Positions 31,621-57,507 of a DNA stretch of 64,000 nt are shown here, in pieces. Each line of letters starts with the position of its first letter. The first letter of the stretch is position 1. The position numbers and the translations under genes were made by a program. Under the pieces are notes generated by a model, which saw nothing but the letters and a program-made list of their open reading frames with translations, was not told the DNA's origin and did not search any database. Origin of the DNA: Candidatus Dadabacteria bacterium CSP1-2 (lineage in GTDB: Bacteria; Desulfobacterota_D; UBA1144; Nemesobacterales; CSP1-2); the NCBI GenBank assembly GCA_001443445.1, contig LDXN01000001.1, positions 49,290 to 113,289 on the forward strand, in the 5' to 3' direction.

Positions 31621-31635
31621 ATTCCAATCGAATAT

Positions 31636-31672
31636 GTAGAGACGCATTGCAATGCGTCTCTACGTTATTTTT
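31636..31672 (+). terminator. intrinsic-terminator-like hairpin between frdA and frdB
   Basis: A perfect 12-bp stem GTAGAGACGCAT-TGCA-ATGCGTCTCTAC followed by GTTATTTTTAA. Confidence 0.6.
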
Positions 31673-31686
31673 AATCGGAGCAGAAA

Positions 31687-32442
31687 ATGGAAAAGACGAT
31701 GAAATTGGAGATATTTAGGTATCGTCCGGACCAGGAGGATCAACCGAGGTTTCAAACGTACGAAGTTCCCTTTAGGGAGGACTGGGTAGTTCTTGATGCG
31801 ATCAACTATATCAAGGATGAAATTGACGGGACGCTTTCCTACCGTTGGTCCTGCCGTATGGGTGTGTGTGGGAGTTGTGGAATGATGGTAAACGGTATTC
31901 CGAAGCTCACGTGCGCCACTTTTCTTAAGGACTACTATCCGGACAAGATTCGGGTAGAGCCGCTCACAGGGTTTCCCGTACAGCGAGACCTTGTGATAGT
32001 TATGGATGACTTCATCCATAAACTCAGAGAGATAAAGCCGTGGATAATTCGGCGTGAGGGCGAGGAGAAGCCAATTGAGGGGGGGGAATACCTACAGACC
32101 CCAGCCGAACTCGAACAGTACAAGCAATACTCGATGTGCATAAATTGCATGCTTTGCTACGCAGCATGTCCTGTATATGCTCTTGACAACACGTTCGTTG
32201 GTCCGGCAGCCATTGCGCTCGCACAACGCTATAACATGGATTCCCGAGACCAGGGACGGGACCAGCGTCAGGAAATCATCGCGAGCCACGAAGGCATTTG
32301 GGAATGTACCTTCGTCGGCGAGTGCAGCGTAGTCTGTCCTAAGGCTGTAGACCCTGCGGGAGCTATCCAGAGATCAAAAGTATCGAGCACAATTGACTGG
32401 TATAAGGAAGTGCTAATACCATGGGGGGGAAAGAAGAGATGA
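31687..32442 (+). CDS. frdB: fumarate reductase/succinate dehydrogenase iron-sulfur subunit
   Basis: 251 aa: 2Fe-2S '[15 protein letters not shown]', 4Fe-4S '[12 protein letters not shown]', 3Fe-4S '[12 protein letters not shown]'. Confidence 0.9.
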
Positions 32443-32822
32443 AACCTTATCGCCGACCTGTTCCAAACACGTGGTGGCTTGAGCGGCGCTCCTACTTCCT
32501 TTTTATAGTCCGTGAGCTGGCGTCGGTCTTTGTGGCGGCGTATAGTGTCTTTTTGTTGCTGGTCATCTACAAGCTTGGCCAAGGACCTGAGGCTTATGAA
32601 GGGATGATTGAACTTCTCAGGTCGCCTGCCCTTATAGTTTTTCACTTAGTCGTCCTTGCGTTCGCAGTTTATCACAGCATTACCTGGTTCAACCTTACTC
32701 CGAAGATCCTTGTTCTGTTTGTTGGAGAAGTGCGAGTCCCGCCACTCCTTATCGCCGGAGCTCATTACTTCGCTTGGCTGGTTCTTTCGGCCCTAGTGGC
32801 CTGGGTCATATTGAGGGCATAA
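32439..32822 (+). CDS. frdC: fumarate reductase membrane anchor subunit C (E. coli FrdC-like, heme-less type)
   Basis: '[31 protein letters not shown]' aligns closely to E. coli FrdC '[31 protein letters not shown]'. ATGA overlap with frdB. Confidence 0.85.
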
Positions 32823-32824
32823 CT

Positions 32825-33175
32825 ATGAGCAAATCAAACGAACCAATCTGGTGGTCTTTGTTTGCGGCGGGAGGTGTTGTTTCTGCGTTCTTCGTCCCAA
32901 TTCTGATAATTATAATAGGTATCGTCTTACCATTTGGCTTAGTAGGAGACGAACCATTTGTCTACGAGCGGATACACGGTGCCGTTTCTCATCCGGTGAC
33001 AAAGCTTCTTCTTTTCTTTCTTATTGTGCTTACTTTCTTTATCTGGGCTCATCGCTTTCGCTACACGCTTGTTCACATGGGGCTGCACAAGGCACGGTCT
33101 GTCATCTCAGTCTTTTGCTATGGCAGTGCTATAGTCGGCACAATCCTCACAGCTATCATACTCTGGCAGATTTAA
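32825..33175 (+). CDS. frdD: fumarate reductase membrane anchor subunit D (FrdD-like)
   Basis: 'MSKSNEPIWWSLFAAGGVVSAFFVPILIIIIGIVLPFGL' aligns to E. coli FrdD '[37 protein letters not shown]'. The longer ORF from 32774 overlaps frdC. Confidence 0.85.
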   Translation: MSKSNEPIWWSLFAAGGVVSAFFVPILIIIIGIVLPFGLVGDEPFVYERIHGAVSHPVTKLLLFFLIVLTFFIWAHRFRYTLVHMGLHKARSVISVFCYGSAIVGTILTAIILWQI

Positions 33176-33426: not shown

Positions 33427-34590
33427 GTGAATATCCATGAATACCAGGCGAAAGAGTTGCTGGCAAAGTATGTCCCAGCAGGAAAGGTCGCTTTTACACC
33501 TGAAGAAGCTTATCAGATAGCTCAGGATCTAAGATGTACAAAACTCGTTGTGAAGGCACAGATTCATGCGGGTGGAAGAGGCAAGGGAGGAGGAATAAAG
33601 CTTGCCAATAGCCCTGATGAGGTAAGACGAATCGCTTCGGAGATGCTCGGTATGCGTCTTGTCACTCATCAAACAGGTGCGGAAGGAAAGATTGTTAGAA
33701 AGGTACTCATAGAAGAGGCCTCGGATATTGAAAGAGAGCTTTATCTAGGAGTTGTGATTGATAGGTCTACAGAAAGAATCGTTTTAATGGCAAGTCCTGA
33801 GGGTGGTGTTGAAATTGAAGAAATTGCTAGGACAAAACCAAAAAAAATCCTTAAGGAATATGTCGATCCTGCCTTAGGGCTTTTACCCTTTCAGTGTAGA
33901 AAGATTGCATACTTCTTGGGGCTTAATGGAAAAACCGCAAATAAGGCAGTGAATCTTATTTCAGGTCTATATCAAGCATTCGTAGATAATGACTGCTCAC
34001 TTGCAGAGATAAATCCACTTGTTGTTACACGTGAAGGTGATGTTCTCGCTCTTGATGTCAAGTTGAACTTTGACGATAATGCACTTTTTCGTCACCCTGA
34101 GATCGAAAAGCTCCGTGACCCAGAGGAGGAAGACCCGACGGAACTCGAGGCAAAGAAGTGGGGTCTTAGCTATGTGAAGCTAAATGGAAATATTGGATGC
34201 CTTGTAAATGGTGCTGGTCTTGCAATGGCGACGATGGATATTATTAAGTATTACGGAAGCGAACCCGCAAACTTTTTAGATGTTGGAGGTGGAGCTAGCA
34301 CTGAGCAGGTTACCCAAGCCTTTAAGATGATTCTTCGCGATCAAAATGTGAAAGCTGTGTTTGTGAATATTTTCGGCGGCATCATGAAGTGTGACACTAT
34401 TGCTACAGGAATTATAACAGCGGCTAAAGAGGTTGGGATAAAAGTACCAATTGTTGTAAGGCTTGAGGGCACTAACGTAGAGCTAGGAAGAAAGATGCTT
34501 GCTGAGTCTGGTTTAAATATTACAACAGGAGCCGATATGCGTGAGGCTGCTGCAAAGGCTGTCGCTGCGGCGGGGGGGAAGTTATCTTAG
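33427..34590 (+). CDS. sucC: succinyl-CoA synthetase (ADP-forming) beta subunit; GTG start
   Basis: '[15 protein letters not shown]' (E. coli 'MNLHEYQAKQLFARY') and the ATP-grasp domain. RBS AGGAGGA. No sucD gene follows. Confidence 0.9.
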
Positions 34591-34896
34591 TTCGGTGTTG
34601 TTTCTATTAATTTCCTTATTCACTTTAATGTAGCGGCGACCTCCGACCTCCATTCGACACGCTCCAGGACAGGTCGGGTCGCCATAAGGCATTGTAGGCA
34701 CGAACTTGTTCGTGCCAAAAATAGCACAGACAAGTCTGTGCCTACAATATTCGACAAGGGTAAAAGATGTAGTCACCATAAAGGACATGGGGAAGGCTAA
34801 AGCCTTCCACTACATTTGAAGAAAAAAGGTAGCGGAATCCTTATGACATTTGATTTGCTAAACAGGTAACAAGCTAAAAAAGGATAGGTAACGAAT

Positions 34897-34966
34897 CCCT
34901 TCGGCCAAGCTCAGGGCATGCTTGCTCGTTGCCGTCCACCAGCAAGACTGGCGGACTACCCTACCT
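34897..34966. repeat. MITE family B copy (reverse orientation of the 3594-3697 copy)
   Basis: 'CTCAGGGCATGCTTGCTCGTTGCCGTCCACCAGCAAGACTGGCGGACTACCCTACC' is the reverse complement of the 5' half of the 3594 element, with a few mismatches. Confidence 0.7.
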
Positions 34967-35136
34967 TGGTATTTATTAGCTAATTAAATTTTTCAAAAAA
35001 CGTTAGGTTTCCATTTGTGGAAGATTTTATTATCTCGTTTAACATCCCTAAAACACATAAATTATTATTAAATAAACCTTGACATTACCCCTTTGATGAT
35101 TAGCTTTAGGTAATGGAGGTTAACCACGTGAGGGAA

Positions 35137-37946: not shown

Positions 37947-38337
37947 ATAGTATATTAAAAGCTGTTGTTTGTCACAAGGTAGCTATTGTAACCCCAATTC
38001 TATATTAAAACGCAGAACAAAATTTAGAGTCAATTTGTATTGGGCGAACCTTGCGTTCGCCCAATACGGGCAACCGCGAGGGCATTTGTTACAACATAAC
38101 ATAAGGGATCAAAGGCAATTAACGTGGCACCCCAATGTCAATTTGCAAGGATAGGCAGGACTTTCTAGTCCTTCATTGGCAGACGGGGTTAGAAAACCCC
38201 GCCTGCCCGATGTCCTTCTGTCCCAGACTTTGCTTAGTCAGCGCCGCTAGGGTTACCCCCCAATGTTTATCGCCGGATTAGATATGCAAAGATCATACGC
38301 TTTCCTCTACATGAATTTAAGACCTGAAGGGTAGACG

Positions 38338-38420
38338 AAACCTTGAGGCTTCCATTGAGTCGCGGCATGGCCTGTCCTGAGCGTGGTCGAAGGGACGCTC
38401 CCAACCTGTCATACCCGAAT
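38338..38420. repeat. MITE family B-related repeat inside 694-bp noncoding region
   Basis: 'CGCGGCATGGCCTGTCCTGAGCGTGGTCGAAGGGACGCTCC'. It sits next to other hairpins: 38044-38064, 38180-38207, 38417-38441 and 38537-38560. Confidence 0.55.
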
Positions 38421-38640
38421 GAAGTTATCGGGTATCTATACTTTTTTGGATTCCCAATAAAGACGTTTGGGAATGACAAAGCAAAATGGGTATCGAAGGG
38501 ATGGTGTTCCTACCTGTCGCGGCACATTTTTTAGGTAAAGACGCAAAATTTTGCGTCTTTACTAGGAATTTCCGTTTTTCTGAATTCTTGCTTCTTTCTC
38601 GTTTCGATGTAAAATTAGATATTTAAACAGGAGGTCTTTA

Positions 38641-47035: not shown

Positions 47036-47320
47036 CTAAAATTGCTTTTTGCCGCCAGCAATTGCTGGAATTATTGATACAATGTCACTTTCCTTTAGCT
47101 CCGTTTCAACCCCCTTTAGAAATCTTATGTCTTCATTATTAACGTATAGATTTATGAATCTTCTTACATTTCCACTTTCATCACAGAGCCGTTCTTTCAC
47201 CCCAGGGAACTGTTTTTCAAGCCCTTCTATGAGTTCTCGGATATTCTTAGCGTTTATTGTTACCTCATCTTTATCTCCCGTAAGTCTTCTAAGTGGGGTG
47301 GGTATTCTTACAGACGGCAT
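47036..47320 (-). CDS. MoaD/ThiS-family sulfur-carrier-like protein with C-terminal GG followed by KKQF extension
   Basis: 94 aa with a beta-grasp-like sequence ending '...IVSIIPAIAGGKKQF'. It is translationally coupled to the upstream ThrC-like gene (2-nt gap). Confidence 0.65.
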   Translation of the reverse strand: MPSVRIPTPLRRLTGDKDEVTINAKNIRELIEGLEKQFPGVKERLCDESGNVRRFINLYVNNEDIRFLKGVETELKESDIVSIIPAIAGGKKQF

Positions 47321-47321
47321 T

Positions 47322-48575
47322 TCAATTACCTCCTTTTTTTCGGCTGTTTAATCTACTATATAAGTCTTCAAACTCCTCTAGCCTTGCTCCAATGATATGG
47401 GGTTTTGATACCTTATCATAAAGAGGCTCCAGGGTTTTAAGCCCGTTTCCAGTAATTGACACAACGATTGATTCATCTCTCGGTATAATATCGTTTTCGA
47501 TAAGTTTTTTAGTCACTGCCATTGTTACACCACCTGCTGTTTCCGTAAATATCCCCTCGGTCTCTGCAAGAAGCTTCATTCCCTCAACAACCTCTTCATC
47601 TGTAACGTCTTCACCACACCCGCCACTTTCTTTCATTACCTTCATTGCGTAGTATCCATCGGCTGGGTTGCCAATAGCAAGGGATTTTGCAATTGTATTT
47701 GGTTTTACAGGTTTAAAAATCTCCCAACCGTTTTTTAATGCAGTAGTGATAGGAGAACATCCTGTTGCTTGCGCCCCATATATCTTTGTTTCTGTTCTAT
47801 CTACCAAACCTAGTTTATCAAATTCCTGTATAGCCTTCCATATTTTTGTGATCAGAGAGCCGCTTGCCATCGGTACTACAATGTGTTTTGGTAAGCGCCA
47901 TCCAAGTTGCTCCATTATTTCAAAACCAAATGTCTTGGATCCCTCAGCATAATATGGGCGTATATTAATATTAACAAATGCCCAGCCGAATTTTCCTGCA
48001 ACCTCGCTACATAGACGATTTACATCGTCATAACTACCATTAATCCCTATAAGCTTTGCTCCATAAACAGTAGTTCCAATAATCTTTGATTGTTCTAAGT
48101 CATACGGAATGAATAAATAGCTTTCAAGCCTTCCTAATGAAGAAAGCGCTGCAACGGCATTTGCCAAGTTTCCGGTGGAAGCACATGCAACGGTCTTATA
48201 CCCAAATTCCTTCGCCTTTGAAAGTGCCACTGATACTACCCTATCTTTGAATGAGAGGGTAGGGTAGCATACGGCATCGTTTTTTACATAAATCTCTCTA
48301 ACACCTAATATCCTTGCCAGGTTATCAGCTTTTAGAAGTGGCGTAAACCCTACGCATTTTCCAATGCTATTTGGCTTATCAAGGGGTAAAAGCTCTGCAT
48401 AACGCCAGATATCGGAGGACCTGTTTTTTATTACATCCCGAGAAAAAACTCTTTTTATTTCATCATATTCGTATGTTACCTCAAGTGGGCCAAAGCAAAA
48501 CTCACAGACATGAATAGGTGCCTTTGGATATTCCTTCCCGCACTCTCTGCATCTTAGTCCTTTTACATAACTCAT
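47322..48575 (-). CDS. thrC: threonine synthase-like PLP enzyme (fold type II) with N-terminal zinc ribbon
   Basis: 417 aa: 'CRECGKEYPK...CEFCFGPLEV' Zn-ribbon, PLP-lysine motif 'PTLSFKDR', Gly-rich loop 'ASTGNLANA'. Could be a genuine ThrC or a ThrC-like sulfur-transfer enzyme. Confidence 0.8.
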   Translation of the reverse strand: MSYVKGLRCRECGKEYPKAPIHVCEFCFGPLEVTYEYDEIKRVFSRDVIKNRSSDIWRYAELLPLDKPNSIGKCVGFTPLLKADNLARILGVREIYVKNDAVCYPTLSFKDRVVSVALSKAKEFGYKTVACASTGNLANAVAALSSLGRLESYLFIPYDLEQSKIIGTTVYGAKLIGINGSYDDVNRLCSEVAGKFGWAFVNINIRPYYAEGSKTFGFEIMEQLGWRLPKHIVVPMASGSLITKIWKAIQEFDKLGLVDRTETKIYGAQATGCSPITTALKNGWEIFKPVKPNTIAKSLAIGNPADGYYAMKVMKESGGCGEDVTDEEVVEGMKLLAETEGIFTETAGGVTMAVTKKLIENDIIPRDESIVVSITGNGLKTLEPLYDKVSKPHIIGARLEEFEDLYSRLNSRKKGGN

Positions 48576-48931
48576 TTCTTTCCTCTTAAAATTAATCTGA
48601 AAAGAATTACCCTTACTTTATGGTGTTGTCAAGAAATAACGGCTATTTTGTAGTTGCAAAGGTGGCTATTCCATCAATTTGAACAAATGCATATGGAGGA
48701 GTCTGGTCATCAGCGGTTAAACATACCCCTGGATCACGCTTCATATTTTTCATTCAAACTGAGTCCGCACCAGCTGTAAATACCAAATCATCTCCGTCTT
48801 TAGGGACTATTTGAAATCCACTTAAATCTTGATTCAGTTTCGTGGTAATATTTACAAAAGAATGAGGTTTTGAATTTCCTGGTTTATTGAATAATGTTTT
48901 AGTCCGATATTTAGAAAATGAGGGTGTAGTC

Positions 48932-49213
48932 ATGAAGGCTCTTTGGAAAAAAGTTGTTTTAGCTGAGAGTAAAGACACGATAGTGGTTGAGGGCAACCAT
49001 TATTTTCCACTGGAGAGTATCAAAAAAGAATATTTCCGTAAAAGTGATACTCATACTACCTGTTCATGGAAAGGGGTAGCTAGTTATTTTGACATTGTGG
49101 TCGCTAATGAGGTTAACAGAGATGCTGCATGGTATTACCCTGAACCAATGGAAGCAGCTAAGCAAATAAAGAATTACATTGGATTTTGGAAGGGTGTAGA
49201 GGTAGTTAAATAA
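48932..49213 (+). CDS. DUF427 domain protein (copy 1)
   Basis: 'MKALWKKVVLAESKDTIVVEGNHYFPLESIKKEYFRKSDTHTTCSWKGVASYFDIVVANEVNRDAAWYYPEP' shares the 'C.WKGVASY...AAW.YP.P' signature with the gene at 54548-55063. Start moved from 48887 to the RBS-preceded ATG at 48932. Confidence 0.7.
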   Translation: MKALWKKVVLAESKDTIVVEGNHYFPLESIKKEYFRKSDTHTTCSWKGVASYFDIVVANEVNRDAAWYYPEPMEAAKQIKNYIGFWKGVEVVK

Positions 49214-51109: not shown

Positions 51110-51379
51110 CTAAATCTGCGTAATTAACTTATCGTAGTCAGCATGTGATCCAATCCAAAACCATATCATTACTTCGTCTTCTTGAACACCAATTGCCCGG
51201 TAGCCACGGCCTATACGGACAGAATAGATAGGTTTACTTGAATGAATTTGCTTAAAGCGAAGGCTCGGATGATATGGGTTCTTCTTCCATAACTCAAAGG
51301 CCACTTTTGCTTGGTGCTGGATATGATCTGGCAATTCCTTGAGTGCCTTACGAAAGCGATCAGTGGTATGCGAGATCAT
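51110..51379 (-). CDS. type II toxin, RelE/ParE superfamily
   Basis: 89 aa: 'FRKALKELP...AFELWKKNPYHPSLRFKQIH...YSVRIGRGYRAIGVQEDEVMIWFWIGSHADYDKL' fits the RelE/ParE-like fold pattern. 4-nt overlap with the upstream antitoxin. Confidence 0.7.
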   Translation of the reverse strand: MISHTTDRFRKALKELPDHIQHQAKVAFELWKKNPYHPSLRFKQIHSSKPIYSVRIGRGYRAIGVQEDEVMIWFWIGSHADYDKLITQI

Positions 51380-51594
51380 TGCTCATTTGAGCTAAGAGGC
51401 TTAGTTTCACCTTTTTGGAATTCGGAAATTGCTTCGTCTGCAAGTGCAGCAAGTTCATCTTGAGATTTGCTGAAAGCTTCAGCCCAACGATGTTCCGAAG
51501 CAAGTTCTTCTAAAATGATGGTGCCGATAGCATCCTGCTCACTTTCGGGCAGCTTAGAGACCTCTTCAAATGCTTTCTTTAGAAGCTTTGTCAT
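51376..51594 (-). CDS. type II antitoxin (putative addiction-module component partner of RelE/ParE toxin)
   Basis: 72 aa, acidic: 'MTKLLKKAFEEVSKLPESEQDAIGTIILEEL...RWAEAFSKSQDELAALADEAISEFQKGETKPL'. It lies upstream of, and overlaps, the toxin gene. Confidence 0.65.
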   Translation of the reverse strand: MTKLLKKAFEEVSKLPESEQDAIGTIILEELASEHRWAEAFSKSQDELAALADEAISEFQKGETKPLSSNEQ

Positions 51595-51969: not shown

Positions 51970-53157
51970 TTATTCGGATTTAAGCCTCAATCCTTTCGGC
52001 ACAACTACACGTTCCAATAAATCAAACAGTCCTTGCACCAGAAGTGCTAGAACAGCGGCGGGGATAGCGCCTTCTAGAATTAGTCCGACATTATCAAGGC
52101 GGATTCCAGTCAGTATAGGTTGGCCGTAGCCGCCTGCGCCGATAAGCGCTCCAAGTGTTGCAGTACCCACATTAATTACCGCGGAGGTTTTAATACCGGC
52201 AAGGATTGAGCGTGAAGCCATGGGTAGTTCTACAAGTCTTAGACGTGCACCTGAGGGTAAACCCAATGCCTCTGCTGATTCACGAATTCCTACGGGAATA
52301 TCTTGAAGTCCTGTATAAGTATTCCTGACAATCGGAAGTAAGCTATAAAGAAATAGGGCTACAATAGCAGGTGCTGAGCCAATTCCAAGTAGTGGAATCA
52401 TAAACACAAGTATTGCCAACGATGGTATCGTTTGGATTATTCCAACAATTCCTAGGATTGCCTGTCCGATTTTTTCTTTCCTGTGTGACAAAATTCCTAG
52501 GGGAATCGAGATGAATATTGCAGCGGCTAGTGATATAGCAACCAGAAAAAGATGCTGCAAGGTGTTATGAACCAATCGGGTTAGAAAAGTTTCTTCTTTA
52601 GGCTCCGTGGTGATAGATAGATTTTTTTGGAGGAACTCTGAAGCAACAACACTCTCCGGTATTCCATCAAGCTTCACCTCAGCATTCATATCAATCATAG
52701 TTTTTTCTGGAATGCGTCCTTCCAATTTTAAGATGGTTTTTAGCACATCAGGGGCATGCTCCATAAGGTCTAAACGGTAAAGAAGGACTGCGTTGTATTC
52801 TGGGAAGTGATGTAAATCGTCATCTAATACCCGTAATTTATAGTAGCGGATCTCGGCATCGGTCGAATATAGATCGATGACGTCTATGCTTCCACTTTCG
52901 AGTCCTCGGTAGGCTAGGTCATGGTCTAATCCCCTTACGTTTGTCTGAGGGAGATTATAGGGTCTACGAAGGCTAGGCCAACCATCGCCACGATTCATGA
53001 ATTCGTTTGTAAATCCAAACCTAAGCTTAGGATGCTTGCGTAGGTCGGATATTTTAGTGATGCCATGTCTTTCTGCAACATCCTCCCTCATACCTATTGC
53101 GTAGGTGTTGTTAAATCTTAAAGGACGACTCATTTGAATGTTTTTCTCAGCTAACAC
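51970..53157 (-). CDS. betaine-type ABC transporter fused substrate-binding domain + permease (OpuAC-like SBD then TMD); 5' part frameshifted
   Basis: The N-terminal part is the C-terminal half of an OpuAC/ProX-like SBD, followed by a BPD permease domain ('SLLPIVRNTYTGLQDIP'). The SBD continues upstream in-frame to about 53390 ('RIKVGSKAFTESVILGEIVAQLAR...'). A signal anchor 'MVLFGTGLILALLFIANTTAG' starting near 53469 is in a different frame. Confidence 0.75.
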   Translation of the reverse strand: MLAEKNIQMSRPLRFNNTYAIGMREDVAERHGITKISDLRKHPKLRFGFTNEFMNRGDGWPSLRRPYNLPQTNVRGLDHDLAYRGLESGSIDVIDLYSTDAEIRYYKLRVLDDDLHHFPEYNAVLLYRLDLMEHAPDVLKTILKLEGRIPEKTMIDMNAEVKLDGIPESVVASEFLQKNLSITTEPKEETFLTRLVHNTLQHLFLVAISLAAAIFISIPLGILSHRKEKIGQAILGIVGIIQTIPSLAILVFMIPLLGIGSAPAIVALFLYSLLPIVRNTYTGLQDIPVGIRESAEALGLPSGARLRLVELPMASRSILAGIKTSAVINVGTATLGALIGAGGYGQPILTGIRLDNVGLILEGAIPAAVLALLVQGLFDLLERVVVPKGLRLKSE

Positions 53158-53482
53158 CTTTTTGAGTGTTTGTTCATCGCGTATATCTCTATCAGCTAAA
53201 ATTTCCTGAGTGATAGTGCCAGTATATTCAGGGTATATGTCAATTTCCCCTTTTAATAGCGCACTCCAGAGTACACGGGTTCCACCAAGCCCTTTAAGAT
53301 GTTTAACATTAGGCTCTTGGGTTCTAGCGAGTTGTGCTACTATTTCTCCAAGAATTACGGATTCGGTGAACGCCTTCGAGCCTACCTTTATTCGGTTACG
53401 GGCGGGCCTGCAGTAGTGTTAGCTATGAATAAAAGCGCTAATATTAGCCCCGTTCCGAAAAGTACCATGGATAAGGAACACG

Positions 53483-53508
53483 TAGGGGCATAGCATGCTA
53501 TGCCCCTA
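53483..53508. promoter_or_regulatory. 26-bp perfect palindrome GTAGGGGCATAGCATGCTATGCCCCTAC in opu ATPase-permease intercistronic region
   Basis: A perfect inverted repeat. Its core decamer TAGCATGCTA recurs at 51652-51661 in the TA-module promoter region. Confidence 0.5.
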
Positions 53509-53538
53509 CAATAAGAAATCAATCGACAAGTCATGCTA

Positions 53539-54297
53539 CTATTCTCCTAGAGATTCTAATGGGCTACGCTGTGCATTAATGAAACTTGTAACAAATGGAT
53601 CGGTAGGTGTGCGAACAAAATCCATTAGTGTTCCTTGCTGAACAATATGTCCATCTCTAATTAGAACAATTGAATCTCCAAAATAACCTGCCTCACCAAT
53701 ATCATGAGTAACCATTACTACGGTTTTGCCAAGTGTATGAAAAACTTCCTTTAGATCGTTCTGAAGCTCAAAACGAATTAGAGGGTCTAGTGCGCCAAGA
53801 GGTTCGTCAAGTAAAAGGGTGTCTGGGTCTAATATAAGTGCCCGCATTAAGCTAACGCGTTGTCTTTGCCCTCCGGAGATTTGGACTGGATAGCGATCAA
53901 GTGCATCAACGGGAAACTTTGTTAATTCACATAGTTCAACTATACGCTTCCCGATACGATCATTATCCCAACCAAGGTATTTAGCCATTAATGAAACATT
54001 TTCTTTTGCGGTGAGGTGTGGGAAAAGGCCACCATCTTGTATTACGTAGCCCATTCTTCGACGAATTGTAAACAAATTAATTGGTGTGAGCATTTCATCT
54101 TTCACATAGACGTTACCCTTGTCAGGTTTTATAAGTCCTATAATGAGGCGTATCAGCGTGGACTTACCGCAACCGCTAGGACCGATAACTACCGTCGTCT
54201 TATGAGGAAGGATTGTTAAATTAATTGAATCAAGCGCTCTTGTAGAGGCGTATGTTTTAGAGATGTTTTCTAGTTTTATCATGCTACGTAGCATCAA
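53539..54297 (-). CDS. betaine/choline-family ABC transporter ATP-binding protein (no CBS domains)
   Basis: 252 aa: Walker A 'GPSGCGKST', signature 'ISGGQRQRV', Walker B 'LLLDEP'. OpuAA/OpuCA-like, but short. Confidence 0.85.
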   Translation of the reverse strand: MMLRSMIKLENISKTYASTRALDSINLTILPHKTTVVIGPSGCGKSTLIRLIIGLIKPDKGNVYVKDEMLTPINLFTIRRRMGYVIQDGGLFPHLTAKENVSLMAKYLGWDNDRIGKRIVELCELTKFPVDALDRYPVQISGGQRQRVSLMRALILDPDTLLLDEPLGALDPLIRFELQNDLKEVFHTLGKTVVMVTHDIGEAGYFGDSIVLIRDGHIVQQGTLMDFVRTPTDPFVTSFINAQRSPLESLGE

Positions 54298-54547: not shown

Positions 54548-55063
54548 TTACCACTCCTCTGTTCCTGGTTCTCCCTTGAAGGGTCCCACAATGTCGCTAG
54601 TGATCCAGCCACCGTAATAAATTCCCGGTTGAGGTATCACTCTTTCATCATCAACATAGCATGCATCCATTTTTTGAGGGTAGAAAGCAATATGATCTTT
54701 GATCGATTCATATCCAGGGGTAGGGTCGGGATAAGTCCATGCGGCGTTAGCAGCTTTTTTGTCGCCAACTATTATAGTGTAATAGGAAGCAACACCCTTC
54801 CACTCACACACTGTCTTCTTCCTAGTTCTTATAAGGTTCTCAGTCTTAATATCTTTAGGAGGTATGTAATAAACAGGGGGACCGCTGGTTTCTAATACCC
54901 TTTTTGCGTTGCGCGTTTCTGCAATTACCACGTTGTTAAAGATCACCTTGATGAGCTTTGTCGTGTCCTCAATGCGGGGAGGTCGTGGGTAGTCCCAAAC
55001 AGATTCCTGACCCGGTTCTGGTTGAATACGTTTTGGTTCCATGATAATCTGCCATTTTGCCAC
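54548..55063 (-). CDS. DUF427 domain protein (copy 2), downstream of egtD
   Basis: 171 aa with 'KKTVCEWKGVASYYTIIVGDKKAANAAWTYPDPTPGY', the same signature as copy 1. Confidence 0.7.
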   Translation of the reverse strand: MAKWQIIMEPKRIQPEPGQESVWDYPRPPRIEDTTKLIKVIFNNVVIAETRNAKRVLETSGPPVYYIPPKDIKTENLIRTRKKTVCEWKGVASYYTIIVGDKKAANAAWTYPDPTPGYESIKDHIAFYPQKMDACYVDDERVIPQPGIYYGGWITSDIVGPFKGEPGTEEW

Positions 55064-55214: not shown

Positions 55215-56195
55215 TTACCGGACTGAAAGATATTGCACGCTGAATTTTCCATCGTCATCAGTCCAAACATGTTTGACTTTAAAGACGTCAGAAACCAGTT
55301 GCTCAAAATCTTCAAGTGTGTACTTATAAGAATATTCGGTCAGGATTCTTTCACCCTTTTTGAAGAAGATTTCGTTGTTATTAATATGTACATACTGATT
55401 TCTTAAGCTTGTAAGATGCATCTCTATTCTTCCTTCGGAACTATTATAGAAAGCATAGTGTCTCCACTGAGCTAGATCAAAATCGGCATCCAGTTCATGA
55501 TTGAGCCGCCTAAGTATATTCAGGTTGAATTCGGCAGTAATCCCGTTCTTATCATTGTAGGCAGCCTCTAATACACTTCTTTCCTTTTTAAGATCTACAC
55601 CGATCAAAAGTCCGCCTGTCTTATCTGCTATTCTTGCAATTAGCTTAAGGAAAGTAGTTGCTTCTTTAGGGGTAAAATTTCCGATTGATGAGCCTGGATA
55701 ATATATAACCTTATGTGACCATGGGAGGTTTAAGTAAGGTAAATCCAATGGCTGAGTATAGTCTGCGCATACAGGCACAATCTTAAGTTGAGGATAATCT
55801 TTTGCAAGTGTAGTTACGGATTTCATTAAGTGCTCGGCGGAAATATCAACTGGTACATATCCAGCGGGTTCTTCAAGATGATCAAGTAATAACCGTATCT
55901 TTTTGCTGCTACCACTGCCGAGTTCTATTAAAAGACATTTTTTGCTTAGGCAAGCTGAGATTTCATCAATATATTTGTTCATAATAGTCATCTCGGTACG
56001 TGTGAGATAGTATTCTTCCAGTTCGCAAATCTGATCAAATAGCGCCGAGCCTCTTTCGTCATAAAAGAGCTTACAGGGGAGTTGCTTTTGCAGTTTTTGA
56101 AGACCTTCTGTCACCTCGGCTAGAAGATTTTCATCTTCGGGTTCAAATTTTTGTAGTGTTAGTAAATTGTTATTCATCGTTCGACTGAGGCTCAC
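55215..56195 (-). CDS. egtD: L-histidine N-alpha-methyltransferase (ergothioneine biosynthesis)
   Basis: 326 aa aligning along its length to mycobacterial EgtD: 'FYDERGSALFDQICELEEYY', 'LIELGSGSSKK', 'YYPGSSIGNFTP', 'ITAEFNLNILRRLNHELDADFDL', 'EGRIEMHL'. Confidence 0.9.
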   Translation of the reverse strand: MSLSRTMNNNLLTLQKFEPEDENLLAEVTEGLQKLQKQLPCKLFYDERGSALFDQICELEEYYLTRTEMTIMNKYIDEISACLSKKCLLIELGSGSSKKIRLLLDHLEEPAGYVPVDISAEHLMKSVTTLAKDYPQLKIVPVCADYTQPLDLPYLNLPWSHKVIYYPGSSIGNFTPKEATTFLKLIARIADKTGGLLIGVDLKKERSVLEAAYNDKNGITAEFNLNILRRLNHELDADFDLAQWRHYAFYNSSEGRIEMHLTSLRNQYVHINNNEIFFKKGERILTEYSYKYTLEDFEQLVSDVFKVKHVWTDDDGKFSVQYLSVR

Positions 56196-57507
56196 GAACG
56201 TCTTTAGCGAGCCTTATTCCCATGAATTGCCATCTTGCATTAGGTGGGAAAAAATTACGATATGTTTTTCTAATGTGAGACATTGATGTGGCGCAGGAGC
56301 CTCCGCGAAGTACCATTTGATTACTCATGAATTTTCCGTTGTACTCTCCTAATGCGCCCGGTAGGGTTTTAAATCCAGGATAGGGGATGTATGGACTCTG
56401 CGTCCATTCCCAAACATCTCCAAACATTTGCAAAAGTCCACTGCTTGAAGAATCTTGATTTAGAGCATGAGGATGAAAGTTGCCACTCTCTACAAAATTC
56501 CCTTCCATTGGTAGTTTAGATGTAGCAATTTCCCATTCAGATTCAGAAGGAAGTCTTGCACCTATCCAGCGGGCATAGGCATCTGCCTCGTAATAGCTAA
56601 CATGGGTGACGGGTTCGTCTAGATCAACTTCACGCATACCTGAAAGTGTAAAATACCACCAATGCCGATCTCTCTTTTCCCAATAAAGTGGAGCTTTCCA
56701 ATCATTTGCCTCAACGGCATACCACCCGTCGGATAACCAGAGCTCTGGTCTTTCGTAACCGCCATCTTCCATAAATGCAAGATACTCACGATTGGTCAAC
56801 AAGCGATATGCTAATTTAAAACTATTTAGATACACCTTATGACGAGGGGATTCATTATCGAAGGCAAAACCATTTCCGTCGTGCCCAATCCAATATACCC
56901 CTTCAGGGAATTGGACCCATCTCACTCCGGGTATTGTAAAAGGCCTAGGGCTATCGTGTTTAATATGAAGATAGACCGGATGGAGGGGATTAACTGAGAA
57001 CACATGTTTAATATCTGTAAGTATTAATTCTTGATGCTGCTGCTCATGATTGAGTCCGATTTCGATTACAGGTGCAATTTCCTCCATTTGTGCCAGATCA
57101 GCCTTTTCAAGAAATTCCAACATGTGCTGGTCTACATAATGTCTATAGGAATATACCTCTTCTACAGTTGGTCTTGATAAAAGCCCGCGTTCTGGGCGAG
57201 AGTGCCTTTTCCCAACCTGAACATAATAAGAGTTAAAAAGGTAGTTATACTGTGGATGTAGTGACCTATAGTGTTTATTTGCTTTATTAAGTATGAATGT
57301 TTCAAAGAACCAGCTTGTATGCGCAATGTGCCATTTTGTCGGACTAACATCAGGCATTGATTGAATGACGTAATCCTCTGTGGCAAGTGGTTTGCAAAGG
57401 GTCTCAGTGAATTCTCGAACGATTTGATATCGTTCGGCTAAAGAACTGTTAATAGAATTACTTTGATCTTTTTCTTCAACTTTTGTTATGTTTTTTTTCG
57501 TATTCAT
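56170..57507 (-). CDS. egtB: ergothioneine biosynthesis sulfoxide synthase EgtB (DinB_2 + FGE-sulfatase domains)
   Basis: 445 aa: DinB-like N-domain with 'HEQQHQELILTD' and a C-terminal FGE-like domain 'GDVWEWTQSPYIPYPGF...RGGSCATS'. Overlaps egtD by 26 nt. Confidence 0.9.
   Translation of the reverse strand: MNTKKNITKVEEKDQSNSINSSLAERYQIVREFTETLCKPLATEDYVIQSMPDVSPTKWHIAHTSWFFETFILNKANKHYRSLHPQYNYLFNSYYVQVGKRHSRPERGLLSRPTVEEVYSYRHYVDQHMLEFLEKADLAQMEEIAPVIEIGLNHEQQHQELILTDIKHVFSVNPLHPVYLHIKHDSPRPFTIPGVRWVQFPEGVYWIGHDGNGFAFDNESPRHKVYLNSFKLAYRLLTNREYLAFMEDGGYERPELWLSDGWYAVEANDWKAPLYWEKRDRHWWYFTLSGMREVDLDEPVTHVSYYEADAYARWIGARLPSESEWEIATSKLPMEGNFVESGNFHPHALNQDSSSSGLLQMFGDVWEWTQSPYIPYPGFKTLPGALGEYNGKFMSNQMVLRGGSCATSMSHIRKTYRNFFPPNARWQFMGIRLAKDVREPQSNDE

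What the first reader, a model, noticed from the sequence alone, without database searches (positions are those of the whole stretch)
55215..57507. egtB-egtD ergothioneine pair in a non-actinobacterial, TCA/complex-I core genome context
Two overlapping genes have clear full-length similarity to EgtD (histidine trimethylase) and EgtB (DinB_2 + FGE sulfoxide synthase). No egtA, egtC or egtE is adjacent. A two-gene egtBD arrangement is what has been reported for cysteine-using (type II) EgtB systems. I cannot tell from the sequence whether this EgtB uses cysteine or gamma-glutamylcysteine. The pair sits at the end of a long co-directional accessory array.
Basis: partly seen in the sequence, partly recalled or inferred. 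Interest (0 to 1): 0.5.

Follow-up and report, generated by a model that had tools for sequence, protein, structure and literature searches.

The report
Ergothioneine genes with a linked importer
This is an ordinary cysteine-type (type II) egtB-egtD ergothioneine gene pair in an uncultured Thermodesulfobacteriota/Dadabacteria-like bacterium. It heads a conserved cluster with a DUF427 gene and a betaine-type ABC importer (broken here by a one-base deletion), and that importer family recurs beside five different ergothioneine/selenoneine pathways, so it may be an unrecognised hercynine/ergothioneine transporter.

Summary
56170-57507(-) is a full-length EgtB (TIGR03440, 597 bits, cut-off 360). 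55215-56195(-) is a full-length EgtD (TIGR03438, 402 bits, cut-off 291; probable ATG at 56177, giving an 8-nt overlap).

It is 59% identical to the cysteine-using Chloracidobacterium enzyme and 35% to the mycobacterial one. It carries the EgtB-II motif, including Tyr94/Tyr95 and N-F-F, and has no type-I tyrosine. No egtA/C/E is present in the 64 kb. EgtB-II has over 16,000 known members, so the pair itself is ordinary.

Here the permease gene carries a 1-nt deletion (53390/53391) that is absent from 95-99% identical relatives.

Databases name this transporter family only as "glycine betaine/osmoprotectant". Its pocket is invariant and ProX-like, not EgtU-like. It recurs next to EgtD paired with EgtB-I, EgtB-II, EgtB-IV-like, SenA or MES, and these are its only recurrent neighbours.

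My best reading is an importer for hercynine-derived betaines coupled to biosynthesis. This is untested. Overall interest is modest.

The parts
56170..57507 (-). egtB, a type II (EgtB-II) non-haem iron sulfoxide synthase, 445 aa
   Evidence: TIGR03440 597.5 bits (cut-off 360), full length; DinB_2 + FGE-sulfatase. 559 bits to CthEgtB 6O6L/6QKI against 147 bits to MthEgtB 4X8B. Motif residues S55, H60, H63, Y94, Y95, R101, R104, H154, Q157, H158, N418, F419, F420, with Q397 at the type-I Tyr position.
55215..56195 (-). egtD, histidine N-alpha-trimethyltransferase. The ORF is 326 aa from GTG; the probable start is ATG 56177 (320 aa), overlapping the egtB stop by 8 nt
   Evidence: TIGR03438 401.7 bits (cut-off 290.9); Methyltransf_33. 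40% identical to M. smegmatis EgtD, with the His-pocket residues Y45, F53, Y62, G168, N173, Y213, T220, M259, E287, S289 all conserved. Start inferred from the 320-aa relatives.
54548..55063 (-). DUF427 (PF04248) protein of unknown function. The ORF is 171 aa; the probable start at 55042 gives 164 aa
   Evidence: PF04248 123 bits. The only PDB relative is 3DJM, 'uncharacterized protein DUF427'. The gene occupies the same position in L161-L165 and lies adjacent to egtD in L002, L011, L053, L105 and L142.
53539..54297 (-). ABC transporter ATPase (ProV-like, no CBS domain); probable start ATG 54294 (251 aa)
   Evidence: PF00005; TIGR01186 proV subfamily 220 bits, below its cut-off. 98-100% identical in L162/L163. 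Always paired with the SBD-permease in related loci.
53482..53509 (.). Perfect 28-nt palindrome GTAGGGGCATAGCATGCTATGCCCCTAC between the ATPase stop and the membrane-anchor coding part of the next gene
   Evidence: single copy in the window, none expected by chance. Conserved in L162 and absent in L161. Function unknown.
51970..53534 (-). Fused OpuAC-type substrate-binding domain plus permease (N-terminal anchor, then SBD, then TMD), interrupted by a 1-nt deletion between 53390 and 53391. The 5' fragment 53388-53534 ends in TAA; the remainder 51970-53389 is in another frame without a start codon
   Evidence: PF04069 + PF00528. Three-frame reading. Intact 521-aa relatives P0001 (99%) and P0002 (95%) read ...PPVTEVKVGSK.... 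DNA alignment shows ACCGAA-TAAAGG in the window against ACCGAAGTAAAGG in L162. Coordinates.
48887..49213 (+). Second, short DUF427 paralogue in the same array (108-aa ORF)
   Evidence: The translation carries the C-x-WKG...AAW.YP motif of DUF427. A 93-aa PF04248 gene is at the equivalent place in L161.

Best explanation
The two genes encode the two committed enzymes of the short, cysteine-dependent aerobic ergothioneine pathway. EgtD trimethylates L-histidine with three SAM to give hercynine. The type II EgtB (3-His Fe(II) centre, catalytic Tyr94/Tyr95 in the lid loop) uses O2 to join L-cysteine to C2 of hercynine, giving hercynylcysteine sulfoxide. A PLP C-S lyase encoded elsewhere, or a non-specific one, releases ergothioneine. 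No gamma-glutamylcysteine branch (EgtA/EgtC) is involved.

The pair is translationally coupled. It forms the head of a conserved five-gene cluster: egtB-egtD-DUF427-ABC ATPase-(binding domain+permease). I infer that the ABC system is a binding-protein-dependent importer for a hercynine-derived betaine. The substrate could be hercynine itself, which would allow salvage and re-sulfurisation, or ergothioneine/selenoneine. In this particular genome the importer's membrane subunit is inactivated by a one-base deletion, if the sequence is correct.

Shown here: gene identities, EgtB subtype, residue conservation, cluster conservation, the deletion, and the comparative linkage. Inferred: all catalytic activities, the transporter's substrate and direction, and any role of DUF427.

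The confidence figure refers to the egtBD/type II core. For the transporter-substrate part I estimate about 0.45.
For: Core. Equivalog-level matches for both genes. EgtB gives 559 bits and 59% identity to CthEgtB against 147 bits and 35% to MthEgtB. CthEgtB is an established type II enzyme coupling hercynine and L-Cys. The EgtB-II composite motif xSHHYYRRHQHxYNFFx is matched at every mappable position. The EgtD histidine pocket is fully conserved. No egtA/C/E is in the window.

Cluster. The same order occurs in L161 (about 80% identity, with the same flanks gltA-SDR-M50 and MTase-DsbA-...-dnaJ), in L162/L163 (98-100%) and in L164/L165 (about 70%). 12 of the 80 closest EgtB-II loci from several phyla have this transporter directly after egtD, and 2 more have a circularly permuted TMD-SBD version with the same pocket type.

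Transporter side. 9 of 80 metagenome loci have egtD/egtB within a few kb, against roughly 0.06 expected under a crude null. In these loci, and in L167 and L170 from the long-contig sample below, the partner enzyme differs while EgtD is constant: EgtB-II; EgtB-I motif (L131); EgtB-IV-like motif (L149); SenA, with SenB in L170 and an uncharacterised GT1 glycosyltransferase in L099 (L099, L170); and an MES-type molybdopterin-NifS fusion (L167). Apart from the ATPase, EgtD-like and EgtB-like genes are the only families that recur as flanking neighbours of the transporter. 4 of 7 members sampled on long contigs are linked, and 1 more is truncated in the same arrangement. The best PDB matches of the binding domain are the ergothioneine-binding EgtUC, Lmo1422 and 8DP6 domains. 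The carboxylate clamp K9/T62/R137, the cage Y59/Y100/Y178/Y202/N98 and the imidazole-contacting Glu (E133, equivalent to E375) are invariant.

Deletion.
Against: Core. No activity was measured. The final C-S lyase is not identified. Three of the 17 motif positions could not be mapped.

Transporter. It fails the published ergothioneine-specificity determinants. It has Phe at G244 and the AfProX state of the F293/Y337 switch (Y59/F96). The G244F and F293Y substitutions lower ergothioneine affinity 100- and 10-fold in SpEgtUC. The residue equivalent to the thione-contacting I243 is variable (K/V/A/Q/S). In the metagenome sample (L081-L160) about 85-90% of family members show no egt gene within the available flanks. 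The pocket is the same whether linked or not, so the family could simply be a general glycine-betaine importer. Databases name it that way. The sampled loci are the most similar ones, not a random or phylogenetically independent sample. ORF calling for the neighbour clustering was crude.
Confidence: 0.85

Rival explanations
1. The downstream ABC system is a generic osmoprotectant (glycine betaine/proline betaine) importer. Its adjacency to ergothioneine genes reflects shared stress regulation or the general clustering of betaine-related genes, not a shared substrate.
For: The pocket has the AfProX (glycine-betaine) state at all three positions that the EgtU papers use to discriminate: Phe at G244, Tyr at F293 and Phe at Y337. 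Most metagenome family members sampled are not next to egt genes, and they share the identical pocket. Public annotations are 'glycine betaine'/'osmoprotectant'. Ergothioneine accumulation responds to osmotic pressure in an engineered C. glutamicum producer.
Against: The only recurrent neighbours of the family are EgtD plus one of five unrelated sulfur/selenium-inserting enzymes, in several gene orders and phyla. Intergenic gaps of about 20 nt between egtD and the ATPase in several loci suggest co-transcription. H. pylori EgtU, a proven ergothioneine importer, differs from SpEgtUC at the two thione-contacting residues, and its SSN group is described as not conserving the S. pneumoniae-type determinants. 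Failing them therefore does not exclude ergothioneine transport.
Confidence: 0.35
2. The one-base deletion in the binding-domain/permease gene is a sequencing or assembly error, and the transporter is intact in the organism.
For: Two independent assemblies of 95-100% identical relatives have the intact gene. It is the only clear frameshift seen in the window. Other assemblies in this data set show similar single breaks, namely SenB split in L170 and the ATPase split in L169.
Against: The missing G is not in a homopolymer run (GAA[G]TAA), the usual site of indel errors. The window has no N and otherwise clean long ORFs.
Confidence: 0.4
3. The EgtB is a type I, gamma-glutamylcysteine-using enzyme whose egtA/egtC partners lie elsewhere in the genome.
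For: Only 64 kb of the genome was seen, so egtA/egtC elsewhere cannot be excluded.
Against: 35% identity to MthEgtB against 59% to CthEgtB. H60 stands where type I has Asp, a YY lid loop is present, and it has N-F-F instead of N-W-D. It has Gln at the type-I catalytic Tyr position. A genuine type-I-motif EgtB from L131 aligns differently.
Confidence: 0.03
4. The DinB/FGE enzyme makes something other than the ergothioneine precursor (selenoneine via SenA-like chemistry, or ovothiol via OvoA-like chemistry), or the methyltransferase makes a different aromatic amino-acid betaine.
For: These families are homologous and cross-hit (SenA model 346 bits, OvoA 120 bits, EasF model 191 bits). CthEgtB has been described as carrying more than one activity.
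Against: All alternative models are below their cut-offs (420, 400, 205.55), while the EgtB and EgtD models are far above theirs. The SenA motif (N-E-H...H-R) is not present, and real SenA sequences align differently. No senB/senC is adjacent. The EgtD imidazole and carboxylate-binding residues are conserved.
Confidence: 0.03

Closest known systems
Type II EgtB / EgtD two-gene ergothioneine system (Chloracidobacterium thermophilum EgtB, PDB 6O6L/6QKI)
   Same: Same domain architecture. 59% identity. Identical composite active-site motif, including the Tyr-Tyr lid loop and N-F-F. egtD lies directly downstream. No egtA/C/E.
   Different: The host lineage is different (Thermodesulfobacteriota/Dadabacteria-like rather than Acidobacteriota). 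The pair is followed by DUF427 and an OpuAC-type ABC transporter in a conserved cluster, which I did not find described.
Mycobacterial egtABCDE cluster (type I EgtB, PDB 4X8B)
   Same: Same end product expected. EgtD is orthologous (40% identity, pocket conserved). EgtB is homologous.
   Different: No EgtA, EgtC or EgtE here. The sulfur donor is predicted to be cysteine, not gamma-glutamylcysteine. The catalytic Tyr is at a different place in the fold.
EgtUV ergothioneine ABC importer (S. pneumoniae SPD_1642-1643, H. pylori EgtUV, Listeria BilE)
   Same: Same transporter class (OpuAC cluster-F binding domain fused to the permease, with a separate ATPase). These are the best PDB matches. The betaine cage, carboxylate clamp and E375-equivalent are conserved. 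It has Gly at T274, as in H. pylori EgtU.
   Different: The domain order is reversed (SBD then TMD). G244 is Phe, F293 is Tyr and Y337 is Phe (the ProX state). P401 is an invariant His. The I243-equivalent is variable. It is found in ergothioneine producers next to biosynthetic genes rather than in non-producers. About 36% identity to SpEgtUC.
Archaeoglobus fulgidus ProX / OpuC-type glycine-betaine binding proteins
   Same: Four-tyrosine cage, Phe at the G244 position, and Phe at the Y337 position, as stated for AfProX in the EgtU papers.
   Different: It is fused to its permease with an N-terminal membrane anchor. It shows recurrent genomic linkage to EgtD-containing pathways. The PDB score is lower than to EgtUC (123 against 145 bits).
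Selenoneine (senABC + egtD) and MES-type anaerobic ergothioneine loci
   Same: They share EgtD and, in L099, L170 and L167, the same transporter family next door.
   Different: The window has neither SenA/SenB/SenC nor MES. Its C-S bond-forming enzyme is EgtB-II.

Membership tests
EgtB, type II (EgtB-II sulfoxide synthase) | DinB_2 + FGE-sulfatase architecture, with a full-length match to the curated EgtB equivalog model above its cut-off | tested here: met
   TIGR03440 597.5 bits against 360, profile 1-413/413; PF12867 + PF03781.
EgtB, type II (EgtB-II sulfoxide synthase) | Three-histidine iron site | tested here: met
   H63, H154 and H158 align with the conserved His of CthEgtB and MthEgtB (KWHxxH, HEQQH). 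The 3-His triad is stated as conserved in EgtBs.
EgtB, type II (EgtB-II sulfoxide synthase) | Composite active-site motif xSHHYYRRHQHxYNFFx (Kayrouz et al.), as opposed to EgtB-I xSDH--RRHQHYYNWDR | tested here: met
   S55, H60, H63, Y94, Y95, R101, R104, H154, Q157, H158, N418, F419, F420. Three positions (1, 13, 17) could not be mapped because the paper's column list is not available.
EgtB, type II (EgtB-II sulfoxide synthase) | Catalytic Tyr93/Tyr94 pair in the lid loop, and no Tyr at the type-I Tyr377 position | tested here: met
   FNSYY is conserved; NQMVLRGG here against DYRVLRGG in MthEgtB.
EgtB, type II (EgtB-II sulfoxide synthase) | O2- and Fe(II)-dependent coupling of L-cysteine (not gamma-Glu-Cys) to hercynine | not testable with these tools
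   Inferred from homology to CthEgtB.
EgtD (histidine N-alpha-trimethyltransferase) | Match to the curated equivalog model above its cut-off, better than the sister EasF family | tested here: met
   TIGR03438 401.7 against 290.9. EasF 190.9 is below its 205.55 cut-off.
EgtD (histidine N-alpha-trimethyltransferase) | Histidine-binding residues Tyr39, Phe47, Tyr56, Asn166, Tyr206, Thr213, Glu282, Ser284 (mycobacterial numbering) | tested here: met
   All are conserved: Y45, F53, Y62, N173, Y213, T220, E287, S289, plus M259 equivalent to M252.
Mycobacterial five-gene egtABCDE pathway | egtA (Glu-Cys ligase), egtC (amidohydrolase) and egtE (PLP C-S lyase) clustered with egtB/egtD | tested here: not met
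   No such domains among the window ORFs of 100 aa or more that were scanned. The only PLP enzyme passes the threonine synthase equivalog cut-off. The rest of the genome was not available.
SenA selenoneine synthase / OvoA | Score above the curated cut-off of NF041186 (SenA) or TIGR04344 (OvoA) | tested here: not met
   346.2 < 420 and 120.4 < 400. The SenA motif residues are absent.
EgtU/EgtV ergothioneine ABC importer | OpuAC-type binding domain fused to the permease (TMD then SBD), plus a separate ATPase | tested here: not met
   The components are present, but the order is SBD then TMD with an N-terminal anchor.
EgtU/EgtV ergothioneine ABC importer | Betaine cage, carboxylate clamp (K242, T296, R379) and imidazole-binding E375 | tested here: met
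   K9, T62, R137, E133, Y100, Y178, Y202 and N98 are invariant in 80/80 family members, with N98 replaced by Asp in 17.
EgtU/EgtV ergothioneine ABC importer | Ergothioneine-specificity determinants: invariant G244 and the F293/Y337 'Y-to-F switch' | tested here: not met
   F11, Y59 and F96 (the AfProX state) in essentially all members.
EgtU/EgtV ergothioneine ABC importer | High-affinity binding and uptake of ergothioneine | not testable with these tools
   Needs ITC or uptake assays.

The most novel reading that the evidence does not exclude
The SBD-TMD fused OpuAC transporter downstream of egtD, with its invariant pocket K-x-F-E-G-T-Y-T-F-N-Y-E-R-H-Y-Y, represents an undescribed and very widespread family (at least about 8,000 homologues). 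It would be a dedicated importer for hercynine-derived betaines. The most economical reading is a hercynine salvage system: it feeds externally available hercynine, the oxidation product of ergothioneine, back to whichever sulfur/selenium-inserting enzyme the host has (EgtB-I, -II, -IV, SenA or MES). DUF427, which travels with egtD and this transporter in many loci, would then be an accessory factor of the EgtB route.
Probability: 0.4. Interest if true: 0.6.

Novelty: new member of a known kind. Interest (0 to 1): 0.33.

Why it matters
The pair by itself only adds one more uncultured lineage to the long list of predicted ergothioneine producers. The linked transporter matters more.

The bacterial ergothioneine transporters described in the papers I read (EgtUV) are importers characterised in bacteria that do not make ergothioneine. 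One paper states that no ergothioneine-specific exporter has been identified in any organism. I found no described hercynine transporter in the papers I searched.

A transporter family that sits next to EgtD in five chemically different pathways gives a concrete candidate, cheap to test, for how environmental bacteria exchange or salvage these antioxidants. It also offers a first functional handle on DUF427.

Tried and rejected
- An exact-sequence look-up of the EgtB found nothing, so the genome itself is not in that collection.
- An Rfam scan of the whole window found no family at gathering score, so no riboswitch or RNA gene was detected near the cluster.
- The promoter/terminator scan of 51.5-57.8 kb gave no more sites than shuffles did. 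Only the palindrome stands out, and it is single-copy.
- NCBIfam has no model for DUF427, the M50-like gene, the DsbA-like gene or DUF6596.
- I considered the PALP enzyme at 47322-48575 as the missing C-S lyase and rejected it. It passes the threonine synthase equivalog cut-off and is followed by a ThiS-like gene.
- I considered that the L011/L015 transporters (TMD then SBD, the EgtU order) might be canonical EgtU. I rejected this because their binding domain is circularly permuted and ProX-like at the switch positions. The automatic alignment failed there, so I read the motifs by eye.
- I could not obtain residue-level alignments to AfProX or H. pylori EgtU, because only the five best PDB alignments are printed. 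I relied on the residues stated in the papers.
- The primary CthEgtB structure paper PMC7133768 is not held.
- Four literature searches for a reported link between ergothioneine/selenoneine biosynthesis genes and an ABC transporter found none. The MES paper does not mention one.
- Genome-scale questions could not be addressed with the tools: egtE elsewhere, and co-occurrence of the transporter with egtD.
Full report
**Observation.**
- The first matches NCBI's EgtB equivalog model from end to end (TIGR03440, 597.5 bits, cut-off 360). It has the DinB_2 + FGE-sulfatase architecture.
- The second matches the EgtD equivalog (TIGR03438, 401.7 bits, cut-off 290.9) and Pfam Methyltransf_33.
- The sister models fail their cut-offs: SenA 346 < 420, OvoA 120 < 400, EasF 191 < 205.55.
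- Relatives have a 320-aa EgtD. This fits the ATG at 56177 and an 8-nt ATGAATAA overlap with the egtB stop, a typical translationally coupled junction.

**Which EgtB.** Sequence answers this.
- Against all PDB chains, the best matches are the three Chloracidobacterium thermophilum EgtB entries (6O6L, 8QF6, 6QKI; 559 bits, E 1e-166). The Mycobacterium thermoresistibile type I enzyme scores 147 bits, and EgtB-IV and SenA about 105.
- In a three-way alignment, the window protein is 59% identical to CthEgtB and 35% to MthEgtB.
- CthEgtB is the structurally characterised type II enzyme that couples hercynine to L-cysteine. Its catalytic residues are two tyrosines, Tyr93/Tyr94, in a lid loop. The type I enzyme uses a C-terminal Tyr377 instead.
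- Kayrouz et al. compress each subfamily into a composite motif: EgtB-I xSDH--RRHQHYYNWDR and EgtB-II xSHHYYRRHQHxYNFFx.
- The window protein has S55, H60, H63, Y94, Y95, R101, R104, H154, Q157, H158 and N418-F419-F420. It has Gln397 where type I has the catalytic Tyr (NQMVLRGG against DYRVLRGG).
- Every position I could map is in the EgtB-II state. Three positions could not be mapped because the paper's column list is not given.
- Real type-I-motif, EgtB-IV-like and SenA sequences from other loci give different residues in the same alignment.

**EgtD.** The protein is 40% identical to M. smegmatis EgtD.
- The residues that bind the histidine carboxylate, amino group and imidazole in mycobacterial EgtD are Tyr39, Phe47, Tyr56, Asn166, Tyr206, Thr213, Glu282 and Ser284.
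- All are conserved here as Y45, F53, Y62, N173, Y213, T220, E287 and S289.

**Context and organism.** I scanned the window ORFs of 100 aa or more against Pfam and NCBIfam, skipping those that overlap longer ORFs or looked spurious.
- The plus strand from 1 to 46 kb is core genome: infB, rbfA, truB, rpsO, pnp, miaA, an Opp-type transporter, plsX-fabD-fabG-acpP-fabF, acnA, icd, mdh, frdABCD, sucC, a sigma factor, dnaK, rpmE, fusA, ppx, hrcA-grpE-dnaJ.
- Upstream of egtB and divergent from it are an M50-type peptidase, an SDR and gltA, followed by nuoN and nuoM.
- No Glu-Cys ligase, class-II amidotransferase or class-V aminotransferase (EgtA/C/E types) is present. The only PLP enzyme passes the threonine synthase cut-off.
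- The closest EgtB in GTDB species representatives is from a Candidatus Dadabacteria MAG (79%), followed by Thermodesulfobacteriota MAGs. A 91% relative of the transporter is named Thermodesulfobacteriota by NCBI. NCBI places Dadabacteria as a class in that phylum.
- The egt cluster has the same GC as the window (0.416).
- A non-actinobacterial EgtB-II is not unusual. This class is the largest, with 16,304 sequences. 64 of the 80 closest loci have egtD directly after egtB.

**The cluster extends beyond the pair.** Downstream on the same strand lie three more genes:
- a DUF427 gene (54548-55063);
- a ProV-like ABC ATPase (53539-54297);
- an ORF with an OpuAC betaine-binding domain followed by a permease (51970-53157 as listed).

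The reading frame of that last ORF continues upstream as binding-domain sequence without a start codon. A membrane-anchor-like peptide sits in another frame. Database relatives settle what happened.
- P0001 (99% identical) and P0002 (95%) are intact 521-aa proteins reading ...ANTTAGPPVTEVKVGSKAF....
- The DNA alignment shows the window has ACCGAA-TAAAGG where L162 has ACCGAAGTAAAGG. One G is missing between window positions 53390 and 53391.
- This creates a TAA stop and a frameshift between the anchor and the binding domain. An exported N-terminal binding domain needs that anchor, so the gene as sequenced should be non-functional.
- L162 and L163 are 98-100% identical to the window in EgtB, EgtD, DUF427 and the ATPase. 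The deletion is therefore either strain-specific or an assembly error. It is not in a homopolymer. I cannot decide between these.

**Conservation of the cluster.**
- L161 is a 63.6-kb NCBI MAG contig with proteins about 73-85% identical. It has gltA-SDR-M50 | egtB-egtD-DUF427-ATPase-SBD/permease-...-MTase-DsbA-DUF427-thrC-like-ThiS-pfkB | dnaJ-grpE-hrcA-ppx. This is the window's order apart from the toxin-antitoxin pair.
- L162 has the same cluster with a different toxin-antitoxin module.
- L164/L165 (transporter about 70% identical) have hisG-egtB-egtD-DUF427-DUF6596-ATPase-SBD/permease.
- Among the 80 closest EgtB-II loci, 12 have this transporter directly after egtD. They come from Thermodesulfobacteriota, several Verrucomicrobiota lineages, Nitrospirota and Planctomycetota.
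- Two more (L011, L015) have an ATPase plus a permease-then-binding-domain fusion. Its OpuAC domain is circularly permuted but carries the same pocket motifs.

**What kind of transporter.** The best PDB matches of the binding domain are ergothioneine-binding domains. These are S. pneumoniae EgtUC and its mutants (145 bits), Listeria Lmo1422/BilEB and the 8DP6 protein. AfProX (123 bits) and OpuCC (106 bits) score lower.

The EgtU papers define the binding-site residues:
- betaine cage: F293, Y341, Y419, Y443, N339;
- carboxylate clamp: K242, T296, R379;
- imidazole H-bond: E375;
- thione contacts: I243, T274;
- key ergothioneine-specificity determinants: an invariant G244 and the F293/Y337 'switch'. 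AfProX has Phe, Tyr and Phe at these three positions.

I mapped these positions using the EgtUC sequence printed. The window protein and all its orthologues have K, E, T, N, Y, E, R, Y, Y conserved. However, they have Phe at G244, Tyr at F293, Phe at Y337 and an invariant His at P401. They have Gly at T274, as in H. pylori EgtU, and a variable residue at I243. The domain order is also the reverse of EgtU.

It is therefore not a member of the EgtU family as defined. The same paper notes that EgtU homologues in the other SSN subclusters do not conserve these determinants, and that H. pylori transporters from that wider cluster still contribute to ergothioneine uptake, with lower affinity. Failing the signature therefore does not exclude the function.

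**Linkage from the transporter side.** A profile of ten orthologues retrieved 80 metagenome loci.
- The pocket is identical in all 80.
- Nine have egtD and/or an EgtB-like gene within a few kb. A crude null (one egtD in 30% of 4-Mb genomes, 10-kb window) expects about 0.06.
- After the partner ATPase, EgtD-like and EgtB-like genes are the only families that recur as flanking neighbours.

The important point is that the partners differ:

| Partner enzyme (with EgtD) | Loci | Evidence |
|---|---|---|
| EgtB-II | L105, L134, L142 and the genome loci | |
| EgtB with the type I motif S-D...N-W-D | L131 | TIGR03440 393 bits; |
| EgtB-IV/OvoA-like motif H-x-H-Y...N-W-F | L149 | |
| SenA | L099, next to an uncharacterised GT1 glycosyltransferase | 510 bits, cut-off 420; |
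| SenA with SenB (split into two ORFs) | L170 | 513 bits; |
| MES-type fusion | L167, whose transporter protein (P0080) NCBI names Candidatus Scalindua | |

In L167 an EgtD equivalog (368 bits) is followed by a 1,135-aa fusion of a molybdopterin domain and a NifS-type cysteine desulfurase. This is the architecture described for the metallopterin-dependent ergothioneine synthase MES.

Of seven family members sampled on long contigs, four are linked, one is truncated in the same arrangement and two are not linked. The constant partner is EgtD, that is, hercynine.

**Mechanism proposed.**
- Shown: the identities, subtype, residues, cluster conservation, the deletion and the linkage.
- Inferred from established enzymology: EgtD makes hercynine from histidine and SAM. 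EgtB-II, with Fe(II) and O2, couples cysteine to hercynine C2 to give hercynylcysteine sulfoxide. An unlinked or non-specific PLP lyase gives ergothioneine. The organism has complex I and a TCA cycle, so O2-dependent chemistry is plausible.
- Inferred from comparative genomics only: the ABC system imports a hercynine-derived betaine.

I favour hercynine (salvage and re-sulfurisation), or a relaxed hercynine/ergothioneine/selenoneine specificity, for three reasons.
1. EgtD/hercynine is the common denominator across five sulfur/selenium-inserting enzymes.
2. The thione-contacting position is variable, and the water-network Gly is filled by Phe.
3. Hercynine is described as a possible marker of ergothioneine oxidation, and exogenous hercynine is efficiently converted by MES-expressing E. 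coli.

I put this at about 0.4-0.45. The main rival, a generic glycine-betaine importer co-located for regulatory reasons, is at about 0.35. It is supported by the ProX-like pocket and by the majority of unlinked metagenome copies.

**DUF427.** The gene between egtD and the ATPase has only a structural-genomics relative (3DJM). It has a beta-tent fold without a zinc site.
- It keeps this position in L161-L165.
- It is adjacent to egtD in L002, L011, L053, L105 and L142, and nearby in L063, L068, L131 and L160.
- A second short paralogue lies at 48887-49213, and at the same place in L161.
- I have no mechanism to propose beyond guilt by association with the EgtB route.

**Novelty.** The pair is a new member of a very well-known kind, and standard annotation would name it correctly.
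- I found no paper reporting an ABC transporter or DUF427 linked to ergothioneine or selenoneine biosynthesis genes.
- Databases call the transporter 'glycine betaine ABC transporter substrate-binding protein' or 'osmoprotectant transport system permease'.
- NCBIfam has no equivalog for it.
- The library searched lacks most subscription-journal papers, so prior mention cannot be excluded.

**Verdict.**
The cysteine/gamma-Glu-Cys question is resolved in favour of type II.
- The finding as written is ordinary.
- The added value is the conserved five-gene cluster, the broken transporter gene, and the recurrent association of this transporter family with five distinct hercynine-consuming pathways. 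That association is a testable lead rather than a result.

Noticed in passing
window 53390-53391 (gene 51970-53534, minus strand): There is a single-base deletion (a missing G, GAA[G]TAA) relative to 95-99% identical relatives. It truncates the binding-domain/permease gene after its membrane anchor. It may be a real pseudogene or an assembly error.
   Followed up: yes
window 53482-53509: A perfect 28-nt palindrome lies directly after the ATPase stop. It is single-copy in the window, conserved in L162 and absent in L161. It scores as terminator-like but has a weak T tail. Database gene calls include it in the coding region of the next gene.
   Followed up: partly
window 48887-49213 (+): A second, short DUF427 gene lies in the same minus-strand array, on the opposite strand. 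A 93-aa DUF427 is at the equivalent place in L161.
   Followed up: partly
window 47322-48575 (-) and 47036-47320 (-): A threonine-synthase-like PLP enzyme with an N-terminal NinF-type zinc ribbon is followed, with overlapping stop/start, by a 94-aa ThiS/MoaD-like protein ending ...AIAGGKKQF. The Gly-Gly followed by a short tail may mark a sulfur-carrier protein that needs C-terminal processing. The pair is conserved in L161. It may be a protein-thiocarboxylate-dependent sulfur amino-acid route.
   Followed up: partly
window 51110-51594 (-); L162 7037-7578; L161 11918-12874: A ParE-like toxin with an upstream small ORF sits between the transporter and the conserved 93-aa/MTase/DsbA genes. The same slot holds an RHH/PemK pair in L162 and an unrelated 318-aa gene in L161, so this is a variable hotspot inside a conserved array.
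   Followed up: partly
window 33427-35112: sucC (succinyl-CoA ligase beta) is followed by about 520 nt without any sucD-like reading frame before the sigma-factor gene. The alpha subunit is not adjacent.
   Followed up: no
window 29854-33175: The frdABCD-type operon (with FrdC and FrdD membrane subunits) has GC 0.505, against 0.416 for the window. This is compositionally distinct from its TCA-gene neighbours.
   Followed up: no
window 37951-38600: About 650 nt between dnaK and rpmE has no convincing ORF on either strand, and no Rfam family at gathering score.
   Followed up: no
L011 14212-15660 and L015 14277-15839: These permease-then-binding-domain fusions lie downstream of egtB-egtD. Their OpuAC domain is circularly permuted relative to EgtUC and the window protein, yet it carries the same pocket motifs, with Ser/Ala in place of the invariant His.
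   Followed up: partly
L167 5252-12072: In this contig, whose transporter protein (P0080) NCBI names Candidatus Scalindua, the transporter pair is followed by an EgtD equivalog and a 1,135-aa molybdopterin + NifS fusion with the MES architecture. This is an oxygen-independent ergothioneine locus with the same transporter.
   Followed up: yes
L170 3819-13518: The transporter pair is flanked by a pyridine-nucleotide-disulfide oxidoreductase (PRK06370-type FAD oxidoreductase) and OsmC. Within 3-5 kb lie a MetE-like gene, SenA, SenB (split into two ORFs) and EgtD. This looks like a redox/selenoneine neighbourhood.
   Followed up: partly
L164 807-1430, L165 775-1398: hisG, the first enzyme of histidine biosynthesis, lies immediately upstream of egtB. 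A DUF6596 protein is inserted between DUF427 and the ATPase; the 432-aa ORF at the equivalent slot in L003 was not identified.
   Followed up: no
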